Part shown: piece by piece, positions 49,244 through 62,776 of the stretch | How positions within the stretch are numbered: position 1 is the stretch's first letter | Layout: the number at the start of each line of letters is the position of its first letter | Assembly (NCBI GenBank): GCA_963811985.1 | Contig: CAWEUH010000059.1 | Span: 21,989 to 85,988 of the forward strand | Length of the DNA: 64,000 bases | Direction of reading: 5' to 3' | Source of the DNA: an uncultured delta proteobacterium | GTDB taxonomy: Bacteria; Myxococcota_A; Polyangia; Polyangiales; Polyangiaceae | The notes under the pieces: model-generated | Database searches by the model: none | Told to the model about the DNA's origin: nothing | Seen by the model: only the letters and a program-made list of their open reading frames with translations | Program-made: the position numbers and the translations under genes

Positions 49244-51049
49244 CTACGGAAACTGTACCAGCACCGGGACCCAACTTTCCACCGTTGAATTGTCGCCCAG
49301 CTGTCCGTAAGTGTTGTCACCCCAACATTGCACACCGCCGTGGACCAGCGCGCAGGCGTGCGTATTGCCTGCTGCGACGGCTGTCACACCAGAGGACAGG
49401 CCTTGGACCTGCACCGGCACTGAACTGTTTACGTTGCTGTTGTCACCCAGCTGACCGTTGGTGTTGTAGCCCCAGCATTGCGCTCCGCCGTTGACTAGCG
49501 CGCACGTTTCGGCACTACAGGCGGCAATGGCTGTCACGCCAGAAGTCAGACCCCAAACTTGAGTCGGAACCATTCTGTTTATCGTTGAATAGTCGCCTAG
49601 CTGACCGAAATCGTTTAGCCCCCAGCATTGCAGATCACCATTCGCTATTGCGCACGCCACGAAATAGCCGACAGCGATGGCCGAGACACCTGACGTGAGG
49701 CCCTGGACCTGAACCGGTACCATACTGATGGTTGTACTGTTGTTTCCGAGTTGGCCCATGTCGTTGTCGCCCCAGCATTGGACGCCGCCGTTGACGATTG
49801 CGCAAGTATTGAAGTACCCGGCCGAGATCGCGGTTACGCCTGAGGTGAGACCTTGGACCTGGACTGGTACCATACTGCCGTGCGTACTGTTGATGCCGAG
49901 CACACCATAACCGTTAAAGCCCCAGCATTGAGCGCTGCCGTTCACCAGTGCACACGTATGGTAAGCACCCGCCGCCAAGGCCGTCACCCTCGAGGAGAGG
50001 CCTTCTGCCTGAACCGGCACCAAGCTGTCGAGCGTACTGTTATTGCCGAGCTGACCGTTACCGTTACCCCCCCAGCACTGCACTCCACCGTTTGCCAACG
50101 CGCACGAGTGCGTGTAGCCAGTAGCGACAGCCGTCACTGAGGAGAGGCCTTTTACCTGAACCGGCACCAAGCTGTCGAGTGTACTGTTGTTGCCGAGCTG
50201 ACCGTACTGATTGTACCCCCAACATTGCACGCCGGATTCGAGCAAGGCACAACTGTGGTCACCCCCGCAGGCCAGGGCAGCTACGCAGCGCGCCGTTGGT
50301 ACGTCAGACCAACTGCTCAGCGAGAGGGCGGGCTGGCAGCTCTGGCAGGGATTGTTCGGGTTGGCAGCTCCAGCAATGTAGGCGACCCCGGCAATCGTGC
50401 AGATGGGCGAAATCGCAGACGTACCCCCTGCGCTGGTGGTACCGCCAGCCAAAGTGGCGCCGCCTGTTGACGGCATCCCCGCCGTGCCCCCTACGGCCGC
50501 ACTACCTCCGGTCGTGCTGCCCGCGTTGCCCCCTGAAGGTGATGTTCCTCCCGTAGCCCCACCGGTTGATTGGGTGCTGCCATTAGGCTTGGTCCCACCC
50601 GTGGCGACCGTGCCTCCAGTCGTTAACGTTCCGCCTGTCGCAACAGTGCCTCCAGTCGCAGACGTTCCGCCTGTCGCAACCGTGCCTCCAGTTGCCGGCG
50701 TTCCGCCTGTGGGTCTGTTTCCACCTGTCGCAACAGTGCCGCCGGTCGCCGTCTTGCCGCCTGTGGGTCTGTTTCCACCTGTTGCAACAGTGCCGCCGGT
50801 CGCCGGCAAGCCGCCCAAGTTCGGGTACCCACCTGTGCTCGCAATACCACCGGTAGCCGAGCCGCCTGTGTTGCTGGTGCCCCACGTGGACACGGTTCCA
50901 CCCGTTGCCCGCAAGTCCCCGGTGCCTTCAGAACCTCCGACAGGTGCAACACCGCCCATGCCAAGGTCAAACACGTCAAGCTCAGAGCGTGCGCCGCAAG
51001 CCATTGACGACAGGATTGCACAGAGGAACCACAGTTTGTGCCTAAGCAT
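49244..51049 (-). CDS. secreted RCC1-repeat (seven-bladed beta-propeller) protein with an N-terminal Gly/Thr-rich linker
   Basis: Lipoprotein-like signal. Long ATGGT/TGG linker. At least 7 RCC1-like repeats (CALxNGGVQCWGxNxxGQLG...VPVQVQGL). Confidence 0.8.
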   Translation of the reverse strand: MLRHKLWFLCAILSSMACGARSELDVFDLGMGGVAPVGGSEGTGDLRATGGTVSTWGTSNTGGSATGGIASTGGYPNLGGLPATGGTVATGGNRPTGGKTATGGTVATGGNRPTGGTPATGGTVATGGTSATGGTVATGGTLTTGGTVATGGTKPNGSTQSTGGATGGTSPSGGNAGSTTGGSAAVGGTAGMPSTGGATLAGGTTSAGGTSAISPICTIAGVAYIAGAANPNNPCQSCQPALSLSSWSDVPTARCVAALACGGDHSCALLESGVQCWGYNQYGQLGNNSTLDSLVPVQVKGLSSVTAVATGYTHSCALANGGVQCWGGNGNGQLGNNSTLDSLVPVQAEGLSSRVTALAAGAYHTCALVNGSAQCWGFNGYGVLGINSTHGSMVPVQVQGLTSGVTAISAGYFNTCAIVNGGVQCWGDNDMGQLGNNSTTISMVPVQVQGLTSGVSAIAVGYFVACAIANGDLQCWGLNDFGQLGDYSTINRMVPTQVWGLTSGVTAIAACSAETCALVNGGAQCWGYNTNGQLGDNSNVNSSVPVQVQGLSSGVTAVAAGNTHACALVHGGVQCWGDNTYGQLGDNSTVESWVPVLVQFP

Positions 51050-51068
51050 GGGACTGCCCGATTATACA

Positions 51069-51182
51069 CCACACAACCCTCCACGCCCGCCCCGCACCAC
51101 TCCCCGCGCGACCCTTTGACCCTGCCCCCTGCACACTGCACCTCGATCTCCAGTCGCGCAGGGAACCTGCAGTGCCGTCGCG
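51069..51182. repeat. copy 1 of a ~115-bp C-rich repeat (CACCACAC(A/G)ACCCTCC...TGCACACTGCAC...AGTCGCGCAG...TGCAGTGCCGT); copy 2 is at 55557..55668
   Basis: ~75% identity over ~115 bp by manual alignment. Copy 1 lies just upstream of the RCC1 gene start. Copy 2 lies just downstream of the beta-helix gene stop. Confidence 0.45.
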
Positions 51183-51541
51183 CCAAGAACGAGCGATGGG
51201 AAGAGTCGCCGCGGCGGGGGCCCGTGGGACTTGGCAAGCGTCATGGCTGCTTCTCGCCGAGCTGACCCGAGTTCGAGAACTCAAACAGATAAGGTGGCTG
51301 CTTTCGCCGGAAACCCGGAGGCGTTGGAAGCGAGAGGAAGGTAGAACTTGCGCTCGTCGGTGACTTACTGGGGCTGCAAGCTGTGCGCAGTCCGTTAGGC
51401 GCACCAGCGAGACCGTGTCGTTGATGCTCTGTAGAGGAGATGAGGCGCACGGACCTACGCCATCCGCTGATAATTCGGCCAGATGTCGGCCTCGTGCCCA
51501 CAGACCCTTGCCATCAGAAACCATTATGGTACTTTTCTGGT

Positions 51542-51814
51542 GTGACTCGCACAGCCCTCGCCCAGGACAGTACCGTTGCTCGGACAATTCGCTTCCCCTC
51601 TGGTCTTCGCGAGCGTATCGCAAGCGATGCCGACCGGTGTGGGCGTAGTTTCGAAGGTCAGGTGTTGGCTCTGCTACGGCGTCACTACGGAGAAGATGTC
51701 GATATAGCGCCAAGCCCGCAGGATGTTCTGGCGCTGGCGACTGCGAGTCTTGCTGATATTCCGGCCGCAGATGCCCGGACACTTTCCCGCCGACTCAAGG
51801 AAGTTAAAAAGTAG
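51542..51814 (+). CDS. vapB: ribbon-helix-helix (Arc/MetJ-type) antitoxin, VapB-like
   Basis: RTIRFPSGLRERIASDADRCGRSFEGQVLALLRRHYG is a canonical RHH N-terminus. It directly precedes the PIN toxin gene. The start is likely GTG at 51542. Confidence 0.7.
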   Translation: MTRTALAQDSTVARTIRFPSGLRERIASDADRCGRSFEGQVLALLRRHYGEDVDIAPSPQDVLALATASLADIPAADARTLSRRLKEVKK

Positions 51815-51823
51815 GCCGCCGTA

Positions 51824-52291
51824 ATGACCATCGGACCCGTTCTTCTGGATACCGATACGTTGTCGGAATTGAGTCGTGCAAACCCCGACGTGGCCGTTCA
51901 CGCTCGAGCGTACTTGCTCGAGTTCGGCCGACTTACCATCACTTCGATCACCGTTTTCGAGCGACTGCGTGGCTATCGCCAAGCATTGCGTGCGGGGAAG
52001 CCGTATCATAAGCAGATGCAAGCGTTTGAGGCGCTCGTCCAAACTTGCATTGTCCTGCCGTTTGACGAAGATGCCGCCGATGTGGCCTCAACTATCTGGT
52101 CCGCGTGCTCACGAAGCCAACGTCAGCGTTTAGGCGACATCCTTATTGCCTCTGTGGCCCTCGCACGGCAACTCCCCTTGGTCACGCGCAACCGGCGAGA
52201 CTTCGAAGCTCTGGGCACGGCATCCGATGTGGATCTTCGTCTGCTGGATTGGACGATCGCCGCCAAAACAACGGCGAAGCGAATTCAGTGA
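51824..52291 (+). CDS. vapC: PIN-domain toxin VapC
   Basis: Conserved PIN acidic residues (LLDTDTLSE..., ...FDEDAADV..., ...GDILIASVAL...TRNRRDFE). Confidence 0.85.
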   Translation: MTIGPVLLDTDTLSELSRANPDVAVHARAYLLEFGRLTITSITVFERLRGYRQALRAGKPYHKQMQAFEALVQTCIVLPFDEDAADVASTIWSACSRSQRQRLGDILIASVALARQLPLVTRNRRDFEALGTASDVDLRLLDWTIAAKTTAKRIQ

Positions 52292-52303
52292 GGGCGCCAT
52301 AAA

Positions 52304-52403
52304 GCGCTTGCAGTTGGCGGCTAGGCCTTCTTATGGGTCTGTCTCAGCGGCGGCAGTGGCTACGCCACAACTATACTGCCGCCGCTGGTTGCTGCGTTAT
52401 GAT
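52304..52403. repeat. copy A of a ~100-bp conserved element (second copy at 54947..55046), containing a 12-bp perfect inverted repeat AGCGGCGGCAGT / ACTGCCGCCGCT
   Basis: Shared blocks are CGCTTGCAGTTGGCGGCT, a ~41-nt variable segment of equal length, GGCAGTGGCT.CGC.ACAA.T.TACTGCCGCCGC and TGCGTTATGATG. In copy B the stem carries a U-G-compatible change. Confidence 0.5.
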
Positions 52404-52547
52404 GATATCCACTCGACAACCGAGGATCGCTACTTTGCGCTGGGACGCACGAACCCAGGGCGGCAATCGAGGTCAGAGTGTAGCGTGCAGTGGCGTCACC
52501 CGGTTCACTTCTGCAACGCCAAATTGGTCACCGTCAGGCTCGCCAAT

Positions 52548-52790
52548 TCACGGCTGCAACGTCGAATTGGTCACCGTAGCGCTCAGTGCATTGATCCCAA
52601 ATGCCGACCCAAGGTTCGTCACGCTCCCCTGTTGCAACTGAGTCCAATGTCCGCCCGTATTGCCGGTAATCGTCGTATCCCGAATCGTAATGGTGCCGGT
52701 CCAGTCGTTGCTGGTCATGAACACGCCGCCGCCGAAGGCGTTGGTGCCCGCAGCATTTCCGGTGCTTTGGTGCCCCCAGTGTGTGGGAGT
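52548..52790 (-). pseudogene. 3'-terminal fragment paralogous to the C-terminus of the beta-helix protein gene at 55674..57269
   Basis: It encodes ...SNDWTGTITIRDTTITGNTGGHWTQLQQGSVTNLGSAFGINALSATVTNSTLQP, near-identical to the last ~65 aa of the 55674 gene. It has no upstream N-terminal or central region. Confidence 0.6.
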
Positions 52791-53086
52791 TGATTGACGG
52801 CCGCGGGTGCTCGCTTCGCTGCGCGCCCGCGCGGCCCCCCAAATCTGTGCTCGCTCCGCTTTGCTCCGCTGCGCAGATGGGGGAGCCTCACCAACTTGGC
52901 GGCAATCTGCGAGTTTCGACCGGTCGAGCCGCATGTACCGATCTGCCACGCGAGCGGAGTTCTTCACGTGTGATTGTGCGAGGCAACTCGAGACCCAGCA
53001 AATCAGCCGGTCTCCGCTTGGCAGCGCAACCATCGCGCCATGCGCCGGCGAGGCACGATGGTCCCGGCTAGCGCCTGTCACGCTGC

Positions 53087-53545
53087 TTGCGCAATGGGTC
53101 GCGAAGCCCAGCTGATTTGCTGGGCCCCGGAGGTGCCAAGTCAGCTCAATCACGCAAACATTCGAAGACTCAAGCGCTCCTAGCCGAGCGTGCCTACGTT
53201 TTGCGGTGCAACCCTACCCGCTCGGAGCAGGTTCTCTGGCAAGAACTTCGCGCTAATCGGTTTGGAATTGCCTTTCGCCGGCAAGTGCCAATCGGCGGCA
53301 AGTACATTGCAGACTTCCTAGCCCCGTCAATCCGGCTGGTCATGGAAGTGGATGGCGGCGTTCATCGTCAGCGGCGTATTGCTGACGCCAGGCGTGATAG
53401 GAATATGAGGCGCCTGGGGTATTATGTCCTTCGTTTGGATGCGGAGGTTGTGCTCCGGAATTTGCCCGTTGCGGTCGAAATTGTTCGGGTGGCTGCCGCA
53501 GGGGCGGCACGGTCAGAACGGCTCGGCAATTGCCCGTCGCCGTGA
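53087..53545 (+). CDS. DUF559 domain protein (Vsr-like endonuclease fold)
   Basis: SEQVLWQELRANRFGIAFRRQVPIGGKYIADFLAPSIRLVMEVDGGVHRQ... is the DUF559 signature. Confidence 0.7.
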   Translation: MRNGSRSPADLLGPGGAKSAQSRKHSKTQALLAERAYVLRCNPTRSEQVLWQELRANRFGIAFRRQVPIGGKYIADFLAPSIRLVMEVDGGVHRQRRIADARRDRNMRRLGYYVLRLDAEVVLRNLPVAVEIVRVAAAGAARSERLGNCPSP

Positions 53546-53853
53546 CACAGCTCTACGGCATGAGGTCTTCGCGACTCGATGCGAACCACGCTCCCAACTG
53601 TGGCAGTTATTGCCTTATGCGGACCTGGATTTATCGAGATATGCCGCGATTGGGATCGGAGAATGTGCGAAGACATGGCACGGTGCGCGCGGCCAGTATT
53701 CGGATATACAGACCGGGGATTCTTGGGATAGGCTGATCGGGTCAATTACCAGTTGGGCAGACCGACGACTTGGACACAGTTCGACCTAGCACAACAGGGC
53801 CTAAGATTGCAATCTCGCAAGGCCAAACGCAGAGGAAACTGAAAGGGCTTTCG

Positions 53854-54212
53854 ATGTCAATCGGCGATAACGCTAAGGGCTTCCACGATGTGACCATAGT
53901 TGCAAGTAACGTTGACGAACTCCGTCGTTTCTACGGCGAGCTAGGATTCAGGCAAGTCGTCGATCGCGGTAATGACCTCGCCGTATTCCTCGTAGGTGCG
54001 AATGAGCTCGCTATTCATACTTCACCTACACGACCTACCAAGGCACTCGTGCTTTCTGTCCTCGTAGATGATCTGGAACCCATTCAACGCCAAGCCGCAG
54101 AACTTCGGGATCCAATTCGAAGGTCCCGCACCAACGCGACCTGGACTAATTGGAATCGCACTGCTCGATCCCAACGGAAACAAAATTGAGTTCCTGAAGC
54201 CCGACGCTAATT
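53854..54212 (+). CDS. VOC-family (glyoxalase/bleomycin-resistance fold) protein with an apparent 1-nt frameshift near 54103-54108
   Basis: The N-terminus is FHDVTIVASNVDELRRFYGELGF. The expected C-terminal motif ...GIALLDPNGNKIEFLKPDAN* is encoded in the +1 frame and ends at 54212. Confidence 0.65.
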
Positions 54213-54264
54213 GAATCCGCGTCCACGTGAGCCGCTTCATTGGGCGAACGATGGGACCAGCGCT

Positions 54265-54552
54265 CTATGCCGCAGAGTCGATGTTCTCGCGCACGATTCG
54301 CGGGTGACGTGCGGCGATGCGTAGCAAGGCTAGTCCAGGACCGTCCGGCTTCACCCTGTCCTGCTCCCAGTTGCGCAGGGTGTGAACACTGATACCGAGC
54401 GCCTCCGCGAATTGCTCCTGTGTCAGACAAATAAATCGTCGCAGCGCGGCTACATCGCCTGGCTCGAGGTTGCCCGCAATAATTCGCCTTCGTTGTGCTC
54501 GAGTCAGGGCTCGACTGAGTTCTTCTCGAGTTAGTTCTTCCCGGTCGTTCAT
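54265..54552 (-). CDS. brnA: BrnA-type antitoxin (HTH)
   Basis: MNDREELTREEL...LEPGDVAALRRFICLTQEQFAEALGISVHTLRNWEQDRVKPDGPGLALLRIAARHP. Overlaps the brnT stop by 4 nt. Confidence 0.8.
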   Translation of the reverse strand: MNDREELTREELSRALTRAQRRRIIAGNLEPGDVAALRRFICLTQEQFAEALGISVHTLRNWEQDRVKPDGPGLALLRIAARHPRIVRENIDSAA

Positions 54553-54839
54553 CGTAGACTCTCCACGTATTCGGCGTACAATTTCTCTTCGGTTTTGGTG
54601 GCCCACCAAGCGCTGATGATCCGTACGAGGTCGTCCGCGCGCTCCGTCCAGACAACCAATACCAACCCGCGCCTTATCGGTCCGATGGATTTGAACCTAT
54701 CCTCTGTCTCGCTGTGGTTGACGTCGTACACTTCCAAAACGGGTGCATCCGTGGTGAAAAGCTCGCTCGCTTCCTCGAAGGACACGTCGTGGAGGCGCCT
54801 GTTCCGCTCGGACTTCTCTGGGTCCCATTCGAAACGCAC
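54549..54839 (-). CDS. brnT: BrnT-type ribonuclease toxin (DUF497)
   Basis: MRFEWDPEKSERNRRLHDVSFEEASELF... is the DUF497/BrnT signature. Toxin-first BrnTA gene order. Confidence 0.85.
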   Translation of the reverse strand: MRFEWDPEKSERNRRLHDVSFEEASELFTTDAPVLEVYDVNHSETEDRFKSIGPIRRGLVLVVWTERADDLVRIISAWWATKTEEKLYAEYVESLR

Positions 54840-54946
54840 GCGTCATTATAAGCTATTAGCTTACATCGTCAAGTCACGCGGTGGACCGTGCCTACGGTTC
54901 CGGGAGAGCGCTCTTCCGAAGCTATGGCGCAGAGCCGCCCAACAAA

Positions 54947-55046
54947 CGCTTGCAGTTGGCGGCTTTGCCTGCTGGGGGGTCGTGGTCGTCGGTGGCAGTG
55001 GCTTCGCAACAATTGTACTGCCGCCGCCTGCTCTTGCGTTATGATG
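54947..55046. repeat. copy B of the ~100-bp conserved element (see 52304..52403)
   Basis: ~75% identical to copy A, with a conserved stem-loop and the conserved terminal TGCGTTATGATG. Confidence 0.5.
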
Positions 55047-55114
55047 GGTTTGGCCCGACTTGATGGGCCGCAACTGAGGCGCAAAGTCGTTATGCCTCTT
55101 TGCTGCCCCGGCCG

Positions 55115-55402
55115 TCACCGCTTACCCTCCACCAACCGCACCAAGGTGCCCGTGATGCGATTGACCCGATTGAGCGTCGAGCCGTCAAGCGCATGAACGT
55201 AACCAAAGGCCTGAGCCACCTCCAAACAGGAAAAACTCTCCCGCATGGAGCCAAGAGCGGAGTGGTAGCGGGCTGTGCGCAGCTCACCGCGGGAATACAT
55301 GCCTTCGGCCAAGTTCAAGGCGACGCTGCTGGAAGCGCGGCGCAGTTGCCGCCCGAGATCACGGTCACGACGCTCAACTTGAGCCAGCAAGGGCCGTAGC
55401 AC
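55115..55402 (-). CDS. four-helix-bundle protein (TIGR02436-like, '23S rRNA intervening-sequence protein' family)
   Basis: RQLRRASSSVALNLAEGMYSRGELRTARYHSALGSMRESFSCLEVAQAFGYV is characteristic of this family. Confidence 0.75.
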   Translation of the reverse strand: MLRPLLAQVERRDRDLGRQLRRASSSVALNLAEGMYSRGELRTARYHSALGSMRESFSCLEVAQAFGYVHALDGSTLNRVNRITGTLVRLVEGKR

Positions 55403-55467
55403 GCTGGTAGACTGGACAACGACGAGCAGAGGCAGGTCGCAAACTCGAAGTGACGACGAGAATTGTG

Positions 55468-55635
55468 GTCAGCGTGCAGAGTGCAGAGTGCAGCGTCAGG
55501 GTGGCACGGGTTGGGTGTTGTGGGGCGGGCATGGGGTGGAACGCGGGGCGTGACTCACCACACGACCCTCCCCACACAAGCCGCGCCACCCCCCACACGA
55601 CCCTCTGACGTTGCACACTGCACTCTGCACGCTGA
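55468..55635. repeat. large imperfect palindrome: 31-bp arms (55468-55498 and 55605-55635, 29/31 complementary) around a ~106-bp G-rich/C-rich spacer
   Basis: The left arm is TCAGCGTGCAGAGTGCAGAGTGCAGCGTCAG. The reverse complement of the right arm is TCAGCGTGCAGAGTGCAGTGTGCAACGTCAG. The right arm belongs to the 55557..55668 repeat copy. Confidence 0.5.
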
Positions 55636-55668
55636 TCTCAGTCGCGCAGCGACTTTGCAGTGCCGTTA
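55557..55668. repeat. copy 2 of the C-rich ~115-bp repeat (see 51069..51182)
   Basis: Manual alignment gives ~75% identity. Confidence 0.45.
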
Positions 55669-55673
55669 CCCGG

Positions 55674-57269
55674 CTACTTCTGCAATGTCGAGTTAACCAC
55701 GGTGGCACTTAGCGCATTGATCCCAAACGCGCTTCCAAGGTTCGTGACGCTGCCCTGTTGCAGTTGAGTCCAAGATCCGCCGGTGTTGCCCGTGATCGTC
55801 GTATCCCGAATCGTGATCGTGCCGGTCCAGTCGTTACTCGTCATGAACACGCCGCCGCCAAAGGCGTTGGTGCCCGCGGCGTTGCCAGTAATTGTGTCGC
55901 CACAAAGAATGATGTTTGTTGAGGAGCCGCCGTCTTGGTAAATGGCGCCGCCGTTGCCTCCGGAGCCGATTTCATTTTGGCCGTTGTTGATGACGGAGCA
56001 TTGCGTTGCGTCGTCGTTGTTGGCGTCATGCCCGGTGGCTTTGTTGTTTTGAAAGACACTGTTGTAGATGTCAAGTTCGGCGAAGAGGCCCCCGAGGGCA
56101 CCGGCGTTGGCGGCTTGGTTGCTGGTGAACGTGCTGCCGACAATGAGGGCACCGTGCTTGCTGCCAAGGATGTAGATGGCGCCGCCACCCGTGTCGGGCC
56201 CGAGAAGCGCGGCCTGGTTGTTCGAAAATGTGCAGTCGATGACCGTGAGGTTGCCATCGCGCATGTAAAGGGCTCCGCCCTCTCCGTCGTCGTAGCCTTG
56301 GGAGCACGGTGCGGGCGCCGTGGGAATCGCCTCTGTGGGCGTGGTCTTGCCGTTGACAAGCGTCAGATGTTGCAGGGTGACGCGTGTCTCGGTCGCCATG
56401 AAGTTGGCGCTGTTGTAGTTTAGAATCTGAACGCTCCCGCCGCCGTCGAGTGTGATCAAGTTGCCGCCGTCAATCACCGTGTTCTTGGTCGTCGGCAGAT
56501 TCATCGTCGCCGTTATTGCGATGGTTTTTGGTGCCGTGCCGCAGTTGAATGTGATGATGCCGCCCTTGGTCACGGCCGTGTTGAGCGAGCTGAATGTGCA
56601 ACTGTCCGCGGTTCCCGTACCAATCACAGACGTTGGGCTGGATACGTCAACCAGGGCGGCGCCTGCCGGCAAGGCAATCGAGCATTGGCCGGGGCTTGAA
56701 GAACCCGCCGTGCCGGTTGCGCCCCCTGTCGAAGACTTGCCTCCGGTCGTTTGAGTGCCGCCCGTCGCGTTCGCGCCCGCCGCCGCGGACTTGCCTCCGG
56801 TCGCTTGCGTGCCGCCCGTTGTATTCGCGCCCCCCGTCGCGGACTTGCCTCCAGTCGCATTCGCTCCGCCCGTCGATGGCTTGCCGCCCGCGGCATTAGC
56901 GCCACCGGTGCCAGACTTGGAGCCGCCGGTGGCATTAGCGCCGCCGGTGCCTGCGCCGCCTAGGCCTGCCTGGCCTCCAGTTGCCGCGTTGCCACCTGTG
57001 TCAGCGATCGAAGTCGTTGACGAGCTGCCACCCGTCGCTTCAGCGCCCCCTGTCGTACCTGACGAAGTCCCGCCCGTGTCGCCTGTGCTCGCGCCGCCCG
57101 TGTCACTGCCCACTGCGCTTGTGCCGCCCACTGCGCTTGTGCCGCCCACTGCGCTCGTTCCGCCCGCTGCGCCGGTGCCGGCGGGTGAGCCAGAACAGCC
57201 AGCCGTCAAGAGCAGTACTGCGAACGATACGGACCCGAGCTTTGGATGGACGGAGAGTGTGCTTTGCAT
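55674..57269 (-). CDS. secreted lipoprotein with a Gly/Thr/Ala-rich linker and a right-handed parallel beta-helix (pectate-lyase-like) domain
   Basis: Lipobox ...AVLLLTAGC. TGG/ATGG linker. Repeated NxxxGGxxxxxG and TITGN beta-helix rungs. Its C-terminus is duplicated at 52548..52790. Confidence 0.7.
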   Translation of the reverse strand: MQSTLSVHPKLGSVSFAVLLLTAGCSGSPAGTGAAGGTSAVGGTSAVGGTSAVGSDTGGASTGDTGGTSSGTTGGAEATGGSSSTTSIADTGGNAATGGQAGLGGAGTGGANATGGSKSGTGGANAAGGKPSTGGANATGGKSATGGANTTGGTQATGGKSAAAGANATGGTQTTGGKSSTGGATGTAGSSSPGQCSIALPAGAALVDVSSPTSVIGTGTADSCTFSSLNTAVTKGGIITFNCGTAPKTIAITATMNLPTTKNTVIDGGNLITLDGGGSVQILNYNSANFMATETRVTLQHLTLVNGKTTPTEAIPTAPAPCSQGYDDGEGGALYMRDGNLTVIDCTFSNNQAALLGPDTGGGAIYILGSKHGALIVGSTFTSNQAANAGALGGLFAELDIYNSVFQNNKATGHDANNDDATQCSVINNGQNEIGSGGNGGAIYQDGGSSTNIILCGDTITGNAAGTNAFGGGVFMTSNDWTGTITIRDTTITGNTGGSWTQLQQGSVTNLGSAFGINALSATVVNSTLQK

Positions 57270-57610
57270 GGTTCTCAAATGACCCCCCATCCGAGCAGAC
57301 GGCTCACTCAGGGCGCGTTCAGCCTGAAAAGCCCCGCGTTTCCGTGCCGCCGTGCCAAAAAGCAACCGGGGGCGCGCCACTGAAAACGATGTCGCACCGA
57401 GCCAGCACTTGGAATCGCTGGCATGGCCGGATGCGAATCGACGAGGTCGCGTCGATTTGGCGATCGGGCCTGCAGGGTTGCGGTTGATCGAATCCGTTGC
57501 GTCGCCACACGTGGCACTGACGTAATCGTTGATGCGGCGTTGAAGTATCGTATGTTCGCGCCGTGGCTAGCGACCCTAACGCACGAGACTTGTCGATCTC
57601 GAGACGAGCT

Positions 57611-59042: not shown

Positions 59043-59357
59043 ATGTGTTTGAGCACATACTTCATCCAAGTGGCAACTGTCATCTACGGTGATTTCGAGT
59101 GGGACGAGGAAAAAGCCGTCCCAAACTTGGCGAAACACGGCGTAGCGTTCGAGGAAGCGACTACGGCAGTCGTGGATCCTAATGCTGTGTTTCTGTCAAA
59201 CGATGCCGACGCGGAGGGTCGCCTTATGGCAATTGGAATGTCTCAACGACTAAATGCTCTGCTTGTTGTCTTTGTCGAGCGCGGCACACGCGATCGCCTA
59301 ATAAGTGCCCGCTATGCGACTCGAGAGGAGGAGATTTTGTATGAACAAGGCAATTAA
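59043..59357 (+). CDS. second BrnT-like toxin (DUF497)
   Basis: GDFEWDEEKAVPNLAKHGVAFEEATTAVVDPNAVF... is the DUF497 signature. Confidence 0.75.
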   Translation: MCLSTYFIQVATVIYGDFEWDEEKAVPNLAKHGVAFEEATTAVVDPNAVFLSNDADAEGRLMAIGMSQRLNALLVVFVERGTRDRLISARYATREEEILYEQGN

Positions 59358-59662
59358 GAGAGGAGAGCCGAGCAACCAATCGCTACTGGAGATGCCGGAA
59401 CTGGACTTGACAAAGGCGAGAATACTAGGCCGAGGCTTGAAGAAGGATAGGCGTCTACCTTTGCGCGCCATGCGTGAGGCAGTTGGAGCAACTCAAGAGG
59501 ATATTGCCGACAAATGGGGATGGATCAGAGCGAGATTTCACGGATTGAGCAACGAGACGACCTGAAGGTCTCTACATTGCGTCGATACGCGCAGGCACTG
59601 GGCGCTGAGATTGAAGTGACCGCCGTACTCGGCACCGGGCGCCGAATTCGGTTGGAGATTTA
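59341..59662 (+). CDS. second BrnA-like HTH antitoxin, with a 1-nt frameshift (A-run AAAA to AAA) near 59510
   Basis: The N-terminal part is MNKAIKRGEPSNQ...EDIADKW. The HTH C-terminus (MGMDQSEISRIEQRDDLKVSTLRRYAQALGAEIEVTAVL) continues in the -1 frame up to the stop at 59660-59662. Confidence 0.65.
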
Positions 59663-59689: not shown

Positions 59690-60007
59690 TCAAACCTTCC
59701 GGGGCTTTGAAGCTTCGGTCCCACCAGGTCTCGCTTTGCCCGGAACGGATAGAATTTCTACATTGTACTTCACCAATCGTTGCTTCATCACCCTTTGCGA
59801 TAGCGGATTGTTGTCAACGAGGATGAAACTACGATTGAGCTTTGCACATGCCTCGCCGACCGTGCCGCTGCCGGCGAAGAAGTCGAGGACCGTCTCGCCG
59901 GGGTTGCTGTGCACTCGCACGATGCGTTCGATGATGCCGAGCGGTTTCTGCGTTGGGTAACCGGTCTTCTCTTTGCCCGTCGGGCTCACGATCGTGTGCC
60001 ACCACAT
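59690..60007 (-). pseudogene. C-terminal fragment of a beta-class N6-adenine/N4-cytosine DNA methyltransferase; the N-terminal catalytic half (DPPY) is missing and the break coincides with the low-GC junction
   Basis: TQKPLGIIERIVRVHSNPGETVLDFFAGSGTVGEA is the C-terminal AdoMet-binding region of PF01555-type methyltransferases. The ORF begins abruptly at 60007, where GC content collapses. Confidence 0.7.
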
Positions 60008-60187
60008 GTCCGTCGGAGCACAGCGGATATATTCATTCCCGTAAGCATCATCTGCCCTGTATCAGTAGACTGAACCCACCCAAATGTGGAAAATGCCGAA
60101 GAAATCCCATTTATGTGTATTAAGTAACTGGTTAATGTAGTAGCATCCCAAACAAGATTTTGTTGTAGTGTAGCCATGTTTACCCTC

Positions 60188-62498
60188 CTACCTTAATTGA
60201 ACAGTCCCTGACCATGAAGTTGACCCACTTGATATACTTAGTACCAACTTATCATCAGCGGCTACTGCTAGTGGGCTAGAAACTAATGATGTAAATGTGC
60301 TCACAGTTCCAGCGGCAGTTCCAGCCAACAGAGTTATGGGGGCTGTAAAAATTGAAACCCCGTTCTTCAATATGTTGAACGTAAAATTGATACTTGGGTC
60401 TGAAGTTATTGTGTACATTTTACATGTTGTCAAAATATTGCTAGCTCTCGGAGCAAGCGCCCAACAAGCTGTGGTACTTACAGTACCATTACCTATAACA
60501 AATGTTACCAACGCCCCTTGGGACGCCAAAGTAATCCGCCCTTTAATATCCACTGTGAGATTAGGGTTTGCATAACTTCCTGCTGTAACACCCGATACAG
60601 CAAGCGTAGCTTGTTGACTTCCCGTGCCCGGTCCAGCTATAACATCACCTGTAAGTTGAGTGATACCCGCTGTGCCAGCTATAGCTGAAAGCACACCACC
60701 CACAACTGTAGTAGTTGTGCCGTCTGGAACCACCGCACCCACTGTACTGTTTGTAGCAAGAGGAAGGTCTGGAGCTTCAAGACTTCTAAAAGTAGGGGCT
60801 GTAGCAGCCCCTGAAACAGGACCTGCATAAATCAAGTTTGCAGATTGAGCTAACTTTTGTATGGTTAACGTTCCAGATTCTGTAAGGGGAGAACCTGTTA
60901 CAGAAAATTCACCTGGAACCACAAAAGCAACACTACCAATACCATTCGAGGCCGATGTAATTCTCCCCTTGTAATCCACAGTAATGTGAGCACCCACATA
61001 GCTCCCTGCTGCGACGCCTGTATTTGCTAACGTTGTACTCTGACTACCTGAACCTGGACCAGCACTAATGTCCCCTGTGAGTTGAGTAATACCCAGTGAA
61101 CCGCTTGCTACGCTTATAACCCCATTGGAAATAGAAATAGTCGTACCATCTGGTTGTACAATACCAGAGGCATACGTTGTAGCATTTGGTAAATCAGACG
61201 AAACAAGCGTTCTAAATGCTGGAGAAGCCGACGTACCACTTGAAGGCCCTGCATAAACAGTATGAGAGTTTTGACTAATGGCTGTAACTACAAAAGTACC
61301 TGAAGATGTTATAGGAGTACCAGATACAACAAATTCGTTAGGCATACTTAGTGCTACGCTAGTTACTGTTCCTCCACCAACACTTCCATTTGAAGCGGCA
61401 GTAATGCGACCCTTGGAATCAATTGTAATATCAGCAAGCGTGTAGCTTCCAGCCGTAACTCCAGTTGCTGATAAAGTATGACAACTTCGCTACCTACGCC
61501 CGGTCCAGCTATAACATCACCTGTAAGTTGAGTGATACCCGCTGTGCCAGCTATAGCACTAATAACCCCATTGGCAACTGTAGTTGTTGCGCCGTCTGGA
61601 ACTACTGCACCTGCTAATAAAGATGTGGCTAATGGTAAATCACTATTGGTTAAGCCACGAAACACCGGAACAGCATCTGAGCCTGATGCCGGACCAGCAT
61701 AGATTGTATTAATCTTTTGCAATGCCTTAGAAAATGCTAGCGTTCCATTGGAGGTTGGAGACCCGGTTACGGTGAACTCAGATGGTGCTGACAATCCAAC
61801 GCTTACTGTATTATTGGAAGCTGAAGTGATACGCCCTTTAGCATCCACAGTCAAAGTGGGAGTATAATATGTTCCTGCTGTAACACCTGATGCAGCAAGT
61901 GTGGCTTGTTGACTTCCTACACCTGGACCAGCAGTTACATCGCCTTGCAATTGATTAATAGCGGCAGCACCTGCTACCGCAATTCCTGATGTTACTATGA
62001 TGGTCAACCATCAGGTATGATTGCACCTGCAAGGCCAGAAGTTGCCAATGGCAGGTCCGCTGAGGTTAAAGCACGAAATGTTGGTTGAGCTACAAAACCT
62101 GCTAACGGTCCGGCGAACACAGTAAGAGCAGGTTCATCTGGAAATCCTTCTTGACCAATAGTTGCCGTGATTACACCATCAACTACTTTAGTGGTAGTCC
62201 CATCAGGTTTAACAATACCGGCGATTAAGTTGGTTGCAAGAGCAGCGGTTCCAAATGAGGTTGTCATGACCCCTGAAGTGCTTACAGGAGATGTAACCAC
62301 TCCTTCCACTGACACTGCAGTAATGGCCCCCGTGCCAGGACCCCCAACAGGAACAAAGGCTGACCCATTCGCGATAAACACTTGTTGGGAATCTTCATCC
62401 CATACCAGCAACCCCTCCAAAGCCTTGAAACTGGTTGGGAGGTTAGCTATATTTCCATGCGGTATTTGGAGTTTTCCCGTAAGGCCAGACAGACTCAT
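60188..62498 (-). CDS. phage tail-fibre-like repeat protein, split over three ORFs (62004..62498, 61363..62007, 60188..61345) by two frameshifts; lies in the low-GC block
   Basis: Recurrent unit ...ITQLTGDVxAGPGxGSQxATLAxSGVTAGSYxxPxLTVDxKGRITxAS... in all three ORFs, typical of phage tail-fibre repeats. ORF 2 ends in junk after GPGVGSE. Near-identical intragenic repeats are at ~60600 and ~61500. Confidence 0.7.
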
Positions 62499-62776
62499 CT
62501 ATAATTCCTTTTCCTACTAAGGAAAGTGGCAGTCAAATAACTTGGGGGAGCCCTAAGCTCCCCCAAGTTATTTATATTTTCTTGTATTTATACTGCTATT
62601 CATCCTCGAATAGCCCAGCTTCCTGTTTATCTAGAACATCAAGGAGCTCTGAAATATGGGGTGTTGTAGCTGTATTCTCAGGAACTTCATCCAATTGCAT
62701 CTCTACAGTGCCCCCACTCGTGTGCATGGGGGCTGCACTGCCCTTGCAGACTGTTCTGGGCTCCGTTGTATAGTCT

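What the first reader, a model, noticed from the sequence alone, without database searches (positions are those of the whole stretch)
52296..55870. Paired duplications: a ~100-bp conserved element with a 12-bp perfect stem, and a pseudogenised copy of a beta-helix protein C-terminus
Element copies at 52304-52403 and 54947-55046 share conserved ends and an internal inverted repeat (AGCGGCGGCAGT...ACTGCCGCCGCT). Between the copies, differences include several Leu-codon-like synonymous swaps in one frame (KRLQLAA.P..GS.S..AVA..QLYCRR.LLRYD) and a U-G-compatible stem change. It could therefore be either a small conserved peptide or a structured RNA. Near each copy lies the 3' end of a beta-helix lipoprotein gene: intact at 55674.., fragment at 52548-52790. 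The second copy additionally encloses a four-helix-bundle gene and a 31-bp-arm palindrome (55468-55635).
Basis: seen in the sequence. Interest (0 to 1): 0.55.

Follow-up and report, generated by a model that had tools for sequence, protein, structure and literature searches.

The report
Integron attC sites, one decayed
The repeated "100-bp element" is really a ~165-nt integron cassette recombination site (attC), present here as one intact and one decayed copy in a leftover cassette cluster of a Polyangiaceae (myxobacterial) genome. This is a known kind of element, not a new RNA or peptide.

Summary

The element is longer than described: about 165 nt, at 54934-55100 (W2, intact) and 52292-52454 (W1, decayed). 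It belongs to a family found only in Polyangiaceae-type genome and soil or peat metagenome contigs. There it forms same-strand arrays with 0.74-1.3 kb spacing between small genes, including toxin-antitoxin pairs.

- **attC hallmarks.** 25 distinct copies carry RYYYAAC at the 5' end and GTTRRRY at the 3' end. They share a long imperfect hairpin with heavy compensatory covariation (25 of 40 pairs, 0/500 shuffles). [quoted passage not shown] This is the architecture of integron attC sites.
- **Integrase.** Integron-integrase remnants lie 1.9-3.8 kb upstream of such arrays in three metagenome loci. The 64-kb window has no integrase-like recombinase, so this is a CALIN-like cassette remnant.
- **Rejected readings.** The peptide reading fails (stops in 23 of 25 copies). 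The RNA reading is unlikely.
- **Not a local duplication.** W1 and W2 are family members, each closer to copies in other contigs than to each other.
- **The beta-helix fragment.** It diverged under purifying selection (dN/dS 0.09, dS 0.9), so it came from another allele rather than decaying in place.

Verdict: a new member of a known kind, of modest interest.

The parts
54934..55100 (+). W2: intact attC-type site, top strand on +. R'' is GCCCAAC at 54937-54943. Bulged bases are G54952 and G54958. The inner hairpin arms are 54987-55000 and 55016-55029. R' is GTTATGC at 55089-55095, with the inferred crossover between G55089 and T55090.
   Evidence: Covariance model R1 scores it 142.6 bits, E = 4e-33, over model positions 1-167 of 167. 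The structure is supported by covariation in 25 copies.
52292..52454 (+). W1: decayed attC-type site. The inner 12-bp hairpin (52346-52357 / 52375-52386) is intact. R'' reads GCCATAA (no AAC), R' is missing, and the outer L''/L' helix is broken by several mispairs.
   Evidence: R1 scores it 61.1 bits, E = 3e-13; the alignment shows the non-pairs. It starts just after the VapC stop codon.
51338..51405 (+). Tentative internally deleted attC remnant: GTAGAAC-TT-GCGC ... GCGC-AGTCC-GTTAGGC, 35 nt upstream of the VapB-like gene.
   Evidence: R1 without filters gives 11.3 bits, E = 0.15 in 20 kb and 0.003 in 400 nt. This is weak and rests mainly on its position and its perfect GTTRRRY.
51440..52291 (+). 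Toxin-antitoxin cassette upstream of W1: an antitoxin-like ORF at 51440-51814 and a PIN/VapC gene at 51824-52291. It has the same orientation as the attC sites.
   Evidence: PF01850 PIN, E = 8.5e-10. VapC homologues also sit in arrays of related loci.
52548..52790 (-). 3'-terminal fragment (about 76 codons) of a beta-helix gene, in frame and ending at a stop codon. Its last 12 codons are tandemly duplicated over 43 bp (52504-52541 and 52547-52584).
   Evidence: (D1, D6), 45 and 66: 7 of 76 amino-acid differences against 43 of 228 nucleotide differences, dN/dS 0.09. The closest 3' end is another contig's gene (L146, 86.6%).
52775..52860 (+). 86-nt GC-rich hairpin repeat at the break point of the beta-helix fragment.
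   Evidence: The same repeat occurs twice in L142 at 92-98% identity, once at the 5' edge of a beta-helix fragment.
53087..53545 (+). DUF559 endonuclease-like gene. A homologue sits downstream of the last detected attC in the L135 array.
   Evidence: PF04480, E = 3e-24. There is a 60% identical homologue at L135 2341-2688, downstream of an attC.
53854..54214 (+). Glyoxalase-like gene, frameshifted.
   Evidence: Two overlapping ORFs in different frames. PF00903 matches weakly. Translating straight through gives 5 stops.
54265..54839 (-). BrnT/BrnA toxin-antitoxin pair, opposite in orientation to W2.
   Evidence: PF04365, E = 3e-20, and MqsA/HTH matches. Homologues at 54-59% identity lie next to family attC sites in L122 and L130.
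55115..55402 (-). Four-helix-bundle (23S rRNA IVP family) gene, N-terminally short. It lies between W2 and the beta-helix gene and is absent from the W1 side.
   Evidence: PF05635, E = 5e-10, starting at profile position 27. TIGR02436 also matches.
55464..55640 (.). Long palindrome downstream of the beta-helix stop codon. It is not an attC of this family.
   Evidence: fold z-score -7.7. It is conserved downstream of another beta-helix gene in L143 (80%). Its right half is repeated at 51067-51178.
55674..57380 (-). Intact beta-helix (PMP-repeat) lipoprotein-like gene, convergent with the cassette cluster. It belongs to a very large conserved Polyangiaceae family.
   Evidence: More than 2000 homologues, the top hits 70-88% identical, several named Polyangiaceae or Polyangia.

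Best explanation
The element is an integron attC-type cassette recombination site of a long (165-175 nt) family that is homogeneous within a Polyangiaceae lineage.

By analogy with studied attC sites, one strand folds into a hairpin when it is single-stranded. By the position of the bulged bases this is the bottom strand, which is the window's minus strand. The hairpin has paired R and L boxes, an unpaired spacer, two extrahelical bases and a branched terminal structure. An integron integrase (IntI) would bind this fold and cut in the AAC of the R box. On the + strand this falls between G55089 and T55090.

In this window the system is a fossil:
- W2 still has every feature and could probably recombine if an IntI were supplied in trans.
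- W1 has lost its R boxes and outer helix, so the VapBC cassette upstream of it is fixed in place.
- No integrase is present in the 64 kb, so this is a CALIN-like cluster.

The cluster runs into the 3' end of a conserved beta-helix gene. The extra beta-helix 3' fragment after W1 comes from a diverged allele or paralogue of the same junction. It was probably left by recombination with DNA from a homologous locus; this last step is inferred, not shown.
For: **Family exists and forms arrays.**
- Exact-word scans found further copies only in a 'delta proteobacterium' MAG contig and in 14 soil, peat or wetland metagenome contigs.
- Within a contig all copies are on one strand. Half of the intervals between neighbours are 0.74-1.3 kb.

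**End motifs.** In 25 distinct copies the 5' 7-mers are GCCCAAC, GTCTAAC, GCCTAAC, GTTCAAC and similar. The 3' 7-mers are GTTAGGC, GTTGGGC, GTTAGCC, GTTATGC and similar. These fit the published RYYYAAC and GTTRRRY boxes (PMC5027507).

**Structure and covariation.**
- 40 pairs are 88.5% paired, against 28-46% when the partners are slid.
- 25 pairs show double changes, in 136 cells.
- 0 of 500 shuffles reach the covariation score.
- RNAalifold found the two main helices independently.

[quoted passage not shown] The first is the 9th nt after AAC and the second lies 6 nt beyond it. On the minus strand they are therefore opposite the AAC, as described for the recombined bottom strand.

**Orientation.** It agrees with the genes: VapBC runs into W1 just after its stop codon, and most cassette ORFs in related arrays are co-oriented.

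**Cassette content.** It is typical of chromosomal integrons (VapBC, BrnTA, Phd-Doc, DUF559). Homologues of the window's BrnTA, DUF559 and RCC1 genes lie within or beside the attC arrays of related loci; the RCC1 homologue lies between two attC sites.

**Integrase.** Remnants scoring best on the integron-integrase model TIGR02249 (91.6 bits, against about 45 for Xer models) lie 1.9-3.8 kb upstream of family attC sites, on the same strand, in three loci: L141, L148 and L150.

**Precedent.** attC sites in Myxococcota genomes are already on record (PMC9668308).
Against: - No intact IntI was found next to any array of this family, only remnants. In all three loci the remnant points the same way as the array, unlike the classical divergent arrangement.
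- The window has no IntI-like recombinase at all.
- The sites are longer than the usual 57-141 nt (range recalled from memory).
- The extrahelical bases would be C and C on the bottom strand, rather than the usual G and T.
- The + (top) strand folds slightly better than the bottom strand (mean 1.4 kcal/mol; the bottom strand is more stable in only 9 of 25 copies). GC skew is slightly positive on the top strand, opposite to the published trend.
- W2's R' (GTTATGC) has one non-purine in the RRR positions.
- IntegronFinder's own attC model could not be run.
- The origin of the beta-helix fragment rests on inference.
Confidence: 0.85

Rival explanations
1. The element is a structured non-coding RNA, such as a 3' UTR element, an sRNA or a cis-regulator, transcribed with the neighbouring genes.
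For: There is strong covariation support for a fold. A few fixed G-U pairs occur on the + strand at helix ends. The + strand folds slightly better than the minus strand.
Against: - No Rfam family matches at gathering score.
- Covarying pairs switch almost only between Watson-Crick pairs, with essentially no G-U intermediates.
- The ends carry RYYYAAC and GTTRRRY.
- Copies follow unrelated genes in same-strand arrays.
- intI remnants lie upstream of arrays.
Confidence: 0.05
2. The element encodes a small conserved peptide (KRLQLAA...LYCRR...).
For: The frame is open in W1 and W2, and in a few close copies over about 35 codons.
Against: 23 of 25 copies have stop codons in that frame. No frame on either strand is open in most copies. 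Copy lengths are 165-175 nt in all three residue classes modulo 3. Diverged copies keep the pairs but give unrelated translations.
Confidence: 0.01
3. It is a non-integron repeat: a REP/BIME or MITE-like palindromic element, or the site of another recombinase such as the Xer-like recombinases that travel with IS91-family transposases beside some arrays.
For: Xer-like recombinase genes paired with IS91-family transposase genes sit next to arrays in L124 and L138. In L124 two such recombinase genes start 128 nt from an attC and point away from it. No intact IntI was seen.
Against: - Those recombinases score below the IntI cutoff (191 against 265 bits), match the IntI model in two separate stretches, and are each followed by an IS91 transposase gene.
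- REP and MITE elements do not show strictly co-oriented arrays at cassette spacing, nor the AAC/GTT core sites with bulge geometry.
- intI remnants lie upstream of arrays in three loci.
Confidence: 0.06
4. It is a diversity-generating retroelement: the two copies are a template repeat and a variable repeat, with the four-helix-bundle protein acting as the Avd-like accessory factor.
For: The four-helix-bundle protein beside W2 belongs to PF05635. I recall this as the family of the DGR accessory protein Avd, which was not checked here.
Against: Differences between the copies are spread over all base classes and are not adenine-specific. Neither copy lies in the 3' end of a target gene. No reverse transcriptase turned up among the window genes scanned. 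The family forms arrays of many copies.
Confidence: 0.01
5. The pattern is a simple local segmental duplication of [element + spacer + beta-helix 3' end], with one copy now decaying.
For: The order element - spacer - beta-helix 3' end is the same at both places, and spacer remnants align. A comparable duplication in L142 is 99.6% identical, so such duplications do happen at this kind of locus.
Against: W1 and W2 are each closer to copies in other contigs than to each other. The coding fragment differs by dS 0.91 but dN 0.08, which in-place decay of a dead copy would not give. The fragment's closest 3' end is in another contig (L146, 86.6% against 81-84% to its own gene).
Confidence: 0.1

Closest known systems
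attC sites of sedentary chromosomal integrons (for example the Vibrio cholerae repeats, VCRs) and of the model cassette aadA7
   Same: - RYYYAAC and GTTRRRY boxes at the ends.
- An imperfect hairpin with an unpaired spacer and bulged bases on the R''-L'' arm. The first bulge is the 9th nt after AAC, as in attC-aadA7 (sequence recalled from memory).
- High similarity of the sites within one lineage.
- Same-strand arrays with cassette-sized spacing.
- Cassettes rich in toxin-antitoxin pairs.
   Different: - Length is 165-175 nt, with a branched terminal structure and a conserved inner hairpin and loop.
- The bulged bases would be C/C on the bottom strand.
- The strand-stability bias is weak or reversed.
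- Only integrase remnants have been seen, and they are co-oriented with the arrays.
CALIN (cluster of attC sites lacking an integron integrase; Cury et al. 2016, PMC4889954)
   Same: There are two attC-type sites on one strand, 2.5 kb apart (the limit is under 4 kb), and no IntI-like gene in the 64-kb window. Most CALINs likewise lack a nearby intI pseudogene.
   Different: One of the two sites is decayed and might not be called by IntegronFinder. In that case the window would hold only a single attC plus relics.
Complex class 1 integrons with ISCR1 (partial duplication of the 3' conserved segment)
   Same: A stretch at the distal end of a cassette array is present twice, flanking inserted genes. 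IS91-family elements occur in related arrays. This is offered only as an analogy for the beta-helix 3'-end duplications.
   Different: There is no IS91 or ISCR transposase in the window. The 86-nt junction repeat was not found next to the IS91 copies. The ISCR1 mechanism is recalled from memory and was not tested.
3'-end duplication by elements that integrate into a gene and carry a replacement end (for example e14 in icd of E. coli)
   Same: There is an intact gene plus a displaced 3' fragment in the same orientation. The two differ mainly at synonymous sites.
   Different: There is no integrase or attP-type element between the repeats. The repeat also includes the neighbouring attC and spacer, which points to a homologous locus as the source of the DNA.

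Membership tests
Integron attC recombination site | Inverse core site RYYYAAC (R'') at the 5' end and core site GTTRRRY (R') at the 3' end of the top strand | tested here: met
   W2 has GCCCAAC and GTTATGC (one non-purine). Across the 25 copies, 21 end their R'' 7-mer in AAC and 24 start their R' 7-mer with GTT. W1 fails: GCCATAA, and no R'.
Integron attC recombination site | Imperfect palindrome in which R''-L'' pairs with L'-R', conserved as structure rather than as sequence | tested here: met
   40 pairs are 88.5% paired, against 28-46% when slid. 25 pairs show compensatory changes, and 0 of 500 shuffles reach the score. RNAalifold agrees.
Integron attC recombination site | Extrahelical bases on the arm opposite the AAC of the recombined bottom strand, plus an unpaired central spacer and a variable terminal structure | tested here: met
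   Two invariant bulged bases (A3 columns 28 and 34) lie on the R''-L'' arm. The spacer is unpaired and asymmetric (2 nt against 5 nt). The terminal region is variable and branched (definition). The base identity (C/C on the bottom strand) is atypical.
Integron attC recombination site | Typical length of 57-141 nt | tested here: not met
   Copies are 165-175 nt. The typical range is recalled from memory. This is a quantitative departure, not a defining failure.
Integron attC recombination site | Bottom strand more stable and purine-rich than the top strand | tested here: inconclusive
   AT skew of the top strand is -0.25, which fits. GC skew is +0.05, and the top strand is 1.4 kcal/mol more stable on average, which do not fit (published trend).
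Integron attC recombination site | Occurs in same-strand arrays separated by cassette-sized, mostly single-gene spacers | tested here: met
   Examples are L122 with 4 sites about 1.25 kb apart and L105 with 5 sites. 10 of 20 intervals are 0.74-1.3 kb, and the longer ones hold IS elements. In the window the 2 sites are 2.48 kb apart.
Integron attC recombination site | Recombined by an integron integrase as folded single-stranded DNA | not testable with these tools
   This needs a conjugation-based attC x attI assay.
Integron attC recombination site | Detected by IntegronFinder's attC covariance model | not testable with these tools
   That model is not available here. My own model R1 was built from the family itself.
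Complete integron | intI gene (tyrosine recombinase with the IntI-specific domain) next to the array, with attI | tested here: not met
Related loci have only remnants that score best on TIGR02249. The Xer-like genes beside the arrays are IS91 partners.
CALIN | At least two attC sites under 4 kb apart on one strand, with no integron integrase nearby | tested here: inconclusive
   W1 and W2 are 2.48 kb apart on the + strand and there is no IntI. However, W1 is decayed (61 bits against 143) and may not count as an attC.
Rfam structured RNA families | Match to a curated covariance model at gathering score | tested here: not met
   No matches in the whole window.
Small protein gene | Reading frame kept open, and amino-acid sequence conserved, across copies | tested here: not met
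   Stops in 23 of 25 copies in the proposed frame, and in 17-25 of 25 in every other frame.
Diversity-generating retroelement TR/VR pair | Differences between the repeats confined to adenines of the template | tested here: not met
   The 39 differences are spread over all 12 substitution classes.

The most novel reading that the evidence does not exclude
The distal end of these cassette arrays, where they meet the 3' end of a conserved beta-helix gene, may be a recurrent capture point. In two genomes DNA has been inserted there together with a second copy of the gene's 3' end: 99.6% identical in L142 and 81% in the window. Both times the break lies at the same 86-nt hairpin repeat. This could mark an undescribed way of adding DNA to integron arrays, for example rolling-circle IS91-like capture followed by homologous rescue, or IntI recombination at a secondary site. 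It would be distinct from ordinary attI insertion.
Probability: 0.1. Interest if true: 0.55.

Novelty: new member of a known kind. Interest (0 to 1): 0.3.

Why it matters
It explains a puzzling repeat as a standard piece of bacterial gene-capture machinery. It also documents a long, lineage-specific attC family in soil Polyangiaceae, a group in which integrons are little described. The window is a clear example of how cassette arrays decay: one site is intact, one has lost its recombination boxes, the cassettes are fused and the integrase is gone. For annotation, the practical point is that the small ORFs reading through the element are spurious, and that the neighbouring toxin-antitoxin, DUF559 and glyoxalase genes are cassette cargo. 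Nothing here changes what is known about how integrons work.

Tried and rejected
- **Rfam.** A scan of the whole window at gathering thresholds found nothing.
- **Peptide.** Six-frame comparison of the two copies showed no clearly conserved frame. The 25-copy frame test then rejected the peptide reading.
- **DGR.** This idea was prompted by the four-helix-bundle gene. It was rejected because the mismatches are not adenine-specific.
- **Genome-wide 17-mer scan.** 118 hits were chance matches or an unrelated Pyrinomonadaceae gene, and only 2 loci (one contig) were real. Seven of the 21 metagenome hits were also unrelated.
- **More copies in the window.** Neither nhmmer nor the covariance model (with and without filters) found any beyond W1, W2 and one weak candidate at 51338-51405.
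- **Other palindromes.** The two large palindromes at 52970-53153 and 55464-55640 are not members of this family. I did not establish what they are.
- **Tyrosine recombinases beside arrays in L124 and L138.** They looked like IntI by position but are Xer-like partners of IS91-family transposases.
- **Looking up the window's VapC protein.** No record.
- **Six beta-helix homologue loci.** Only L142 has a family attC nearby; L143-L147 do not. The array/beta-helix junction is therefore not general.
- **Search with the intI remnant.** It returned only short remnant-like proteins and no full-length IntI linked to this family.
- **Apparent longer beta-helix match.** A tblastn extension of the fragment to 53249 is carried by the last 76 residues and is not real homology.
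- **Single-sequence folds of W2.** Minimum-free-energy folds do not reproduce the consensus structure. The structure rests on covariation.

Full report
**Observation.** The two copies of the element are real.
- Positions 52297-52404 and 54939-55046 are 77% identical (BLAST E = 9e-17).
- Their shared 18-mer occurs exactly twice in the window, against 0.12 expected.
- The 12-bp perfect stem is at 52346-52357 and 52375-52386.
- The beta-helix 3' end is present twice: 52554-52778 and 55680-55904, 82-84% identical.
- Between the second element copy and the intact gene lie a PF05635/TIGR02436 four-helix-bundle gene at 55115-55402(-) and a long palindrome at 55464-55640.

**Local context.** The genes around the element are a typical mixed bag of small accessory genes:
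- a PIN/VapC toxin with an upstream antitoxin-like ORF (51440-52291, +);
- a DUF559 gene (+);
- a frameshifted glyoxalase-like gene (+);
- a BrnT/BrnA pair (-).

The beta-helix domain has more than 2000 close homologues. Several are named Polyangiaceae or Polyangia, which places the window in that myxobacterial group.

**More copies elsewhere.** An exact-word scan of one genome per species found true copies only in one 89-kb contig of a 'delta proteobacterium' MAG (loci L017 and L105). A metagenome scan added 14 soil, peat or wetland contigs.

Aligning these copies showed that the element is about 165 nt, not 100. The conserved part continues through ...TTGATGGGCCGCAACTGAAGCGCAAACCGTTRRRY.

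Within each contig every copy is on the same strand. Half of the intervals between neighbours are 0.74-1.3 kb, and longer intervals contain IS elements. The genes in between include VapBC, Phd-Doc and BrnTA pairs. Homologues of the window's DUF559 and RCC1-repeat genes also lie in or beside these arrays.

**Anatomy.** In 25 distinct full-length copies:
- The 5' end reads GCCCAAC, GTCTAAC, GCCTAAC, GTTCAAC and similar.
- The 3' end reads GTTAGGC, GTTGGGC, GTTAGCC, GTTATGC and similar.
- These are the R'' (RYYYAAC) and R' (GTTRRRY) boxes of integron attC sites (PMC5027507).

The layout on the + strand is AAC-AA-GCGC-TT-[G]-CAGTT-[G]-GCGGC ... GCCGC-AACTG-AA-GCGC-AAACC-GTT.

The two arms pair, except for a short asymmetric spacer and two invariant bulged G's. 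Diverged copies keep the pairs through double changes. Examples are GCGC/GCGC to GGCA/TGCC or CGGGC/GCCCG, and CAGTT/AACTG to CAGCG/CGCTG or ACCC/GGGT.

Counted on the 25-copy alignment:
- 40 pairs are 88.5% paired, against 28-46% when the partners are slid.
- 25 pairs show compensatory changes, in 136 cells.
- No shuffle out of 500 reaches the observed covariation score.
- Single-sided (G-U type) changes are nearly absent, which suits a DNA hairpin better than an RNA.

RNAalifold found the two main helices on its own.

[quoted passage not shown] On the minus strand they are therefore opposite the AAC, which is the published signature of the recombined bottom strand. This makes + the top strand. 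That agrees with VapBC running into W1 just after its stop codon, and with most cassette ORFs in related arrays. The first bulge is the 9th base after AAC and the second lies 6 bases beyond it. From memory of the attC-aadA7 sequence, this is the same spacing as in that model site.

**The two window copies.** A covariance model built from the 25 copies gives:
- W2 (54934-55100): 142.6 bits over the full model.
- W1 (52292-52454): 61.1 bits. W1 keeps the inner hairpin but has GCCATAA instead of an R'' box, no R' box and a broken outer helix.

No other copy exists in the window, with or without filters. The one exception is a weak, internally deleted candidate at 51338-51405, which has a perfect GTTAGGC and lies 35 nt before the VapB-like gene.

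W1 and W2 are not each other's nearest relatives. W2 is 80-81% identical to copies L130 and L135a. W1 is 83% identical to L135a over its conserved part. W1 against W2 is 74% over that part and 60% over the full length. They are therefore two members of a lineage-wide family, not a local duplicate pair.

**Integrase.** The window contains no IntI-like recombinase.

Recombinase genes that sit beside arrays in L124 and L138, at the head of the array in two of the three cases, turned out to be Xer-like. They score 191 bits on TIGR02249 against a cutoff of 265, match that model in two separate stretches, and each is followed by an IS91-family transposase gene.

True integron-integrase remnants do occur. 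In L141 a fused N- and C-terminal remnant scores best on TIGR02249 (91.6 bits, against about 45 for Xer models). It ends ...[29 protein letters not shown]. The same remnant lies 1.9-3.8 kb upstream of family attC sites in three loci (L141, L148, L150), always on the same strand as the sites.

CALINs, which are attC clusters without an integrase, are common, and most lack a nearby intI pseudogene (PMC4889954). attC sites in Myxococcota genomes have been reported (PMC9668308).

**Rejected readings.**
- *Peptide.* Stops occur in 23 of 25 copies in the proposed frame. Lengths are not conserved modulo 3. Diverged copies translate to unrelated sequences.
- *Known RNA family.* None matches.
- *DGR template/variable repeat.* The mismatches are not adenine-specific.

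**Departures from textbook attC sites.**
- Length is 165-175 nt.
- The terminal structure is branched, with a conserved inner hairpin.
- The extrahelical bases are C/C on the bottom strand.
- There is no clear stability advantage of the bottom strand.

**The beta-helix fragment.** It is in frame for 76 codons and differs from the intact gene at 43 of 228 nucleotides but only 7 of 76 residues. Four of those seven are at the junction. Thirty differences are at third codon positions, giving dS 0.91, dN 0.08 and dN/dS 0.09.

A copy decaying in place would not look like this. The fragment must have been part of a working gene for almost all of its divergence. Its closest 3' end is in another contig (L146, 86.6%) rather than in its own neighbour (81-84%).

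The order attC - spacer - beta-helix 3' end is the same at both places. On the W2 side the four-helix-bundle gene and the palindrome are extra.

In the related locus L142 a family attC array also runs toward the 3' end of a beta-helix gene, and a second 3' end copy is present there too. That copy is 99.6% identical to its own gene. In both genomes the fragment breaks off at the same 86-nt GC-rich hairpin repeat.

My inference, which is not shown, is that DNA from a homologous array/beta-helix junction of a related strain or paralogous locus recombined in here. That would have left the older junction (VapBC-W1-fragment) behind the newer one (DUF559...BrnTA-W2-gene). Five other beta-helix loci have no family attC nearby, so the junction is not universal.

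**Verdict.** The element is an integron attC-type site of a long, Polyangiaceae-specific family. The window holds one apparently functional copy, one decayed copy and fused cassettes, with no integrase. This is a new member of a known kind. The only mildly unusual points are the size and bulge identity of the sites, the fact that only integrase remnants have been seen, and the recurrent duplication of the beta-helix 3' end at the array's far end.

Noticed in passing
window 52775-52860; L142 12193-12270 and 14594-14653: An 86-nt GC-rich hairpin repeat (GGCCGCGGGTGCTCGCTNCGCTGCGCGCCCGCGCGGCC...) is 92-98% identical between the window and another genome. In both it sits exactly at the break point of a beta-helix 3' fragment. 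Its nature is unknown: a REP-like element or the end of a mobile element.
   Followed up: partly
window 55464-55640, 51067-51178; L143 11831-11988: A long palindrome lies downstream of the beta-helix gene (fold z-score -7.7). It is conserved at 80% downstream of another beta-helix gene in L143. Its right half plus 30 nt is repeated upstream of the RCC1-repeat gene in the window.
   Followed up: partly
window 52970-53153: A second large imperfect palindrome of about 184 nt (fold z-score -3.9) lies just upstream of, and overlapping the start of, the DUF559 ORF. It is absent from the equivalent place in L142. Its ends loosely resemble attC boxes (GGCAAC ... GTGCC), but the family model does not detect it.
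   Followed up: partly
window 53854-54214: The glyoxalase-like gene is split by a frameshift: two overlapping ORFs in different frames.
   Followed up: no
window 52504-52584: The last 12 codons and the stop codon of the beta-helix fragment are tandemly duplicated (43-bp period, 82% identity).
   Followed up: no
window 59043-59565: A second BrnT-like / BrnA-like toxin-antitoxin pair lies on the + strand, 41% identical to the first BrnT.
   Followed up: no
window 60000-62500: A low-GC block (43-47%, against about 59% around it) encodes several ORFs with repeated GITQLTGDVxAGPGxGSQ motifs. None has a Pfam match. Next to it is an ORF at 59690-60007 that looks like a DNA methyltransferase fragment (by eye, not scanned). 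The block looks like foreign, possibly phage-tail-fibre-like, DNA.
   Followed up: no
L124 293-430 and 5365-5500; L134 3774-3886: A short conserved hairpin (GCCGCGC..GCGCGGCTTC) directly abuts attC R'' boxes that read GTTCAAC. In L124 this lies 128 nt from the start of Xer-like recombinase genes, one of which is followed by an IS91-family transposase gene. IS91-family elements may target the GTTC within R''.
   Followed up: partly
L141 1623-1877; proteins P0121-P0150: The integron-integrase remnant (N-terminal helix fused to the C-terminal tyrosine region, about 84 aa) has many database relatives of 100-145 aa with the same two-piece architecture, at 45-87% identity. This is either a recurrent deletion product or a real mini-protein family.
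   Followed up: no
L150 2787-3800: A reverse-transcriptase (RVT_1) gene lies between the intI remnant and a family attC site. It could be a group II intron of the kind known to associate with integrons.
   Followed up: no
window 55115-55402: The four-helix-bundle gene lacks about 20-25 N-terminal residues of the PF05635 and TIGR02436 models, so it may be truncated.
   Followed up: no
window 49244-51049: An RCC1-repeat lipoprotein-like gene has internal repeats and a Thr/Gly-rich linker like that of the beta-helix protein. A homologue lies between two attC sites in L134.
   Followed up: partly
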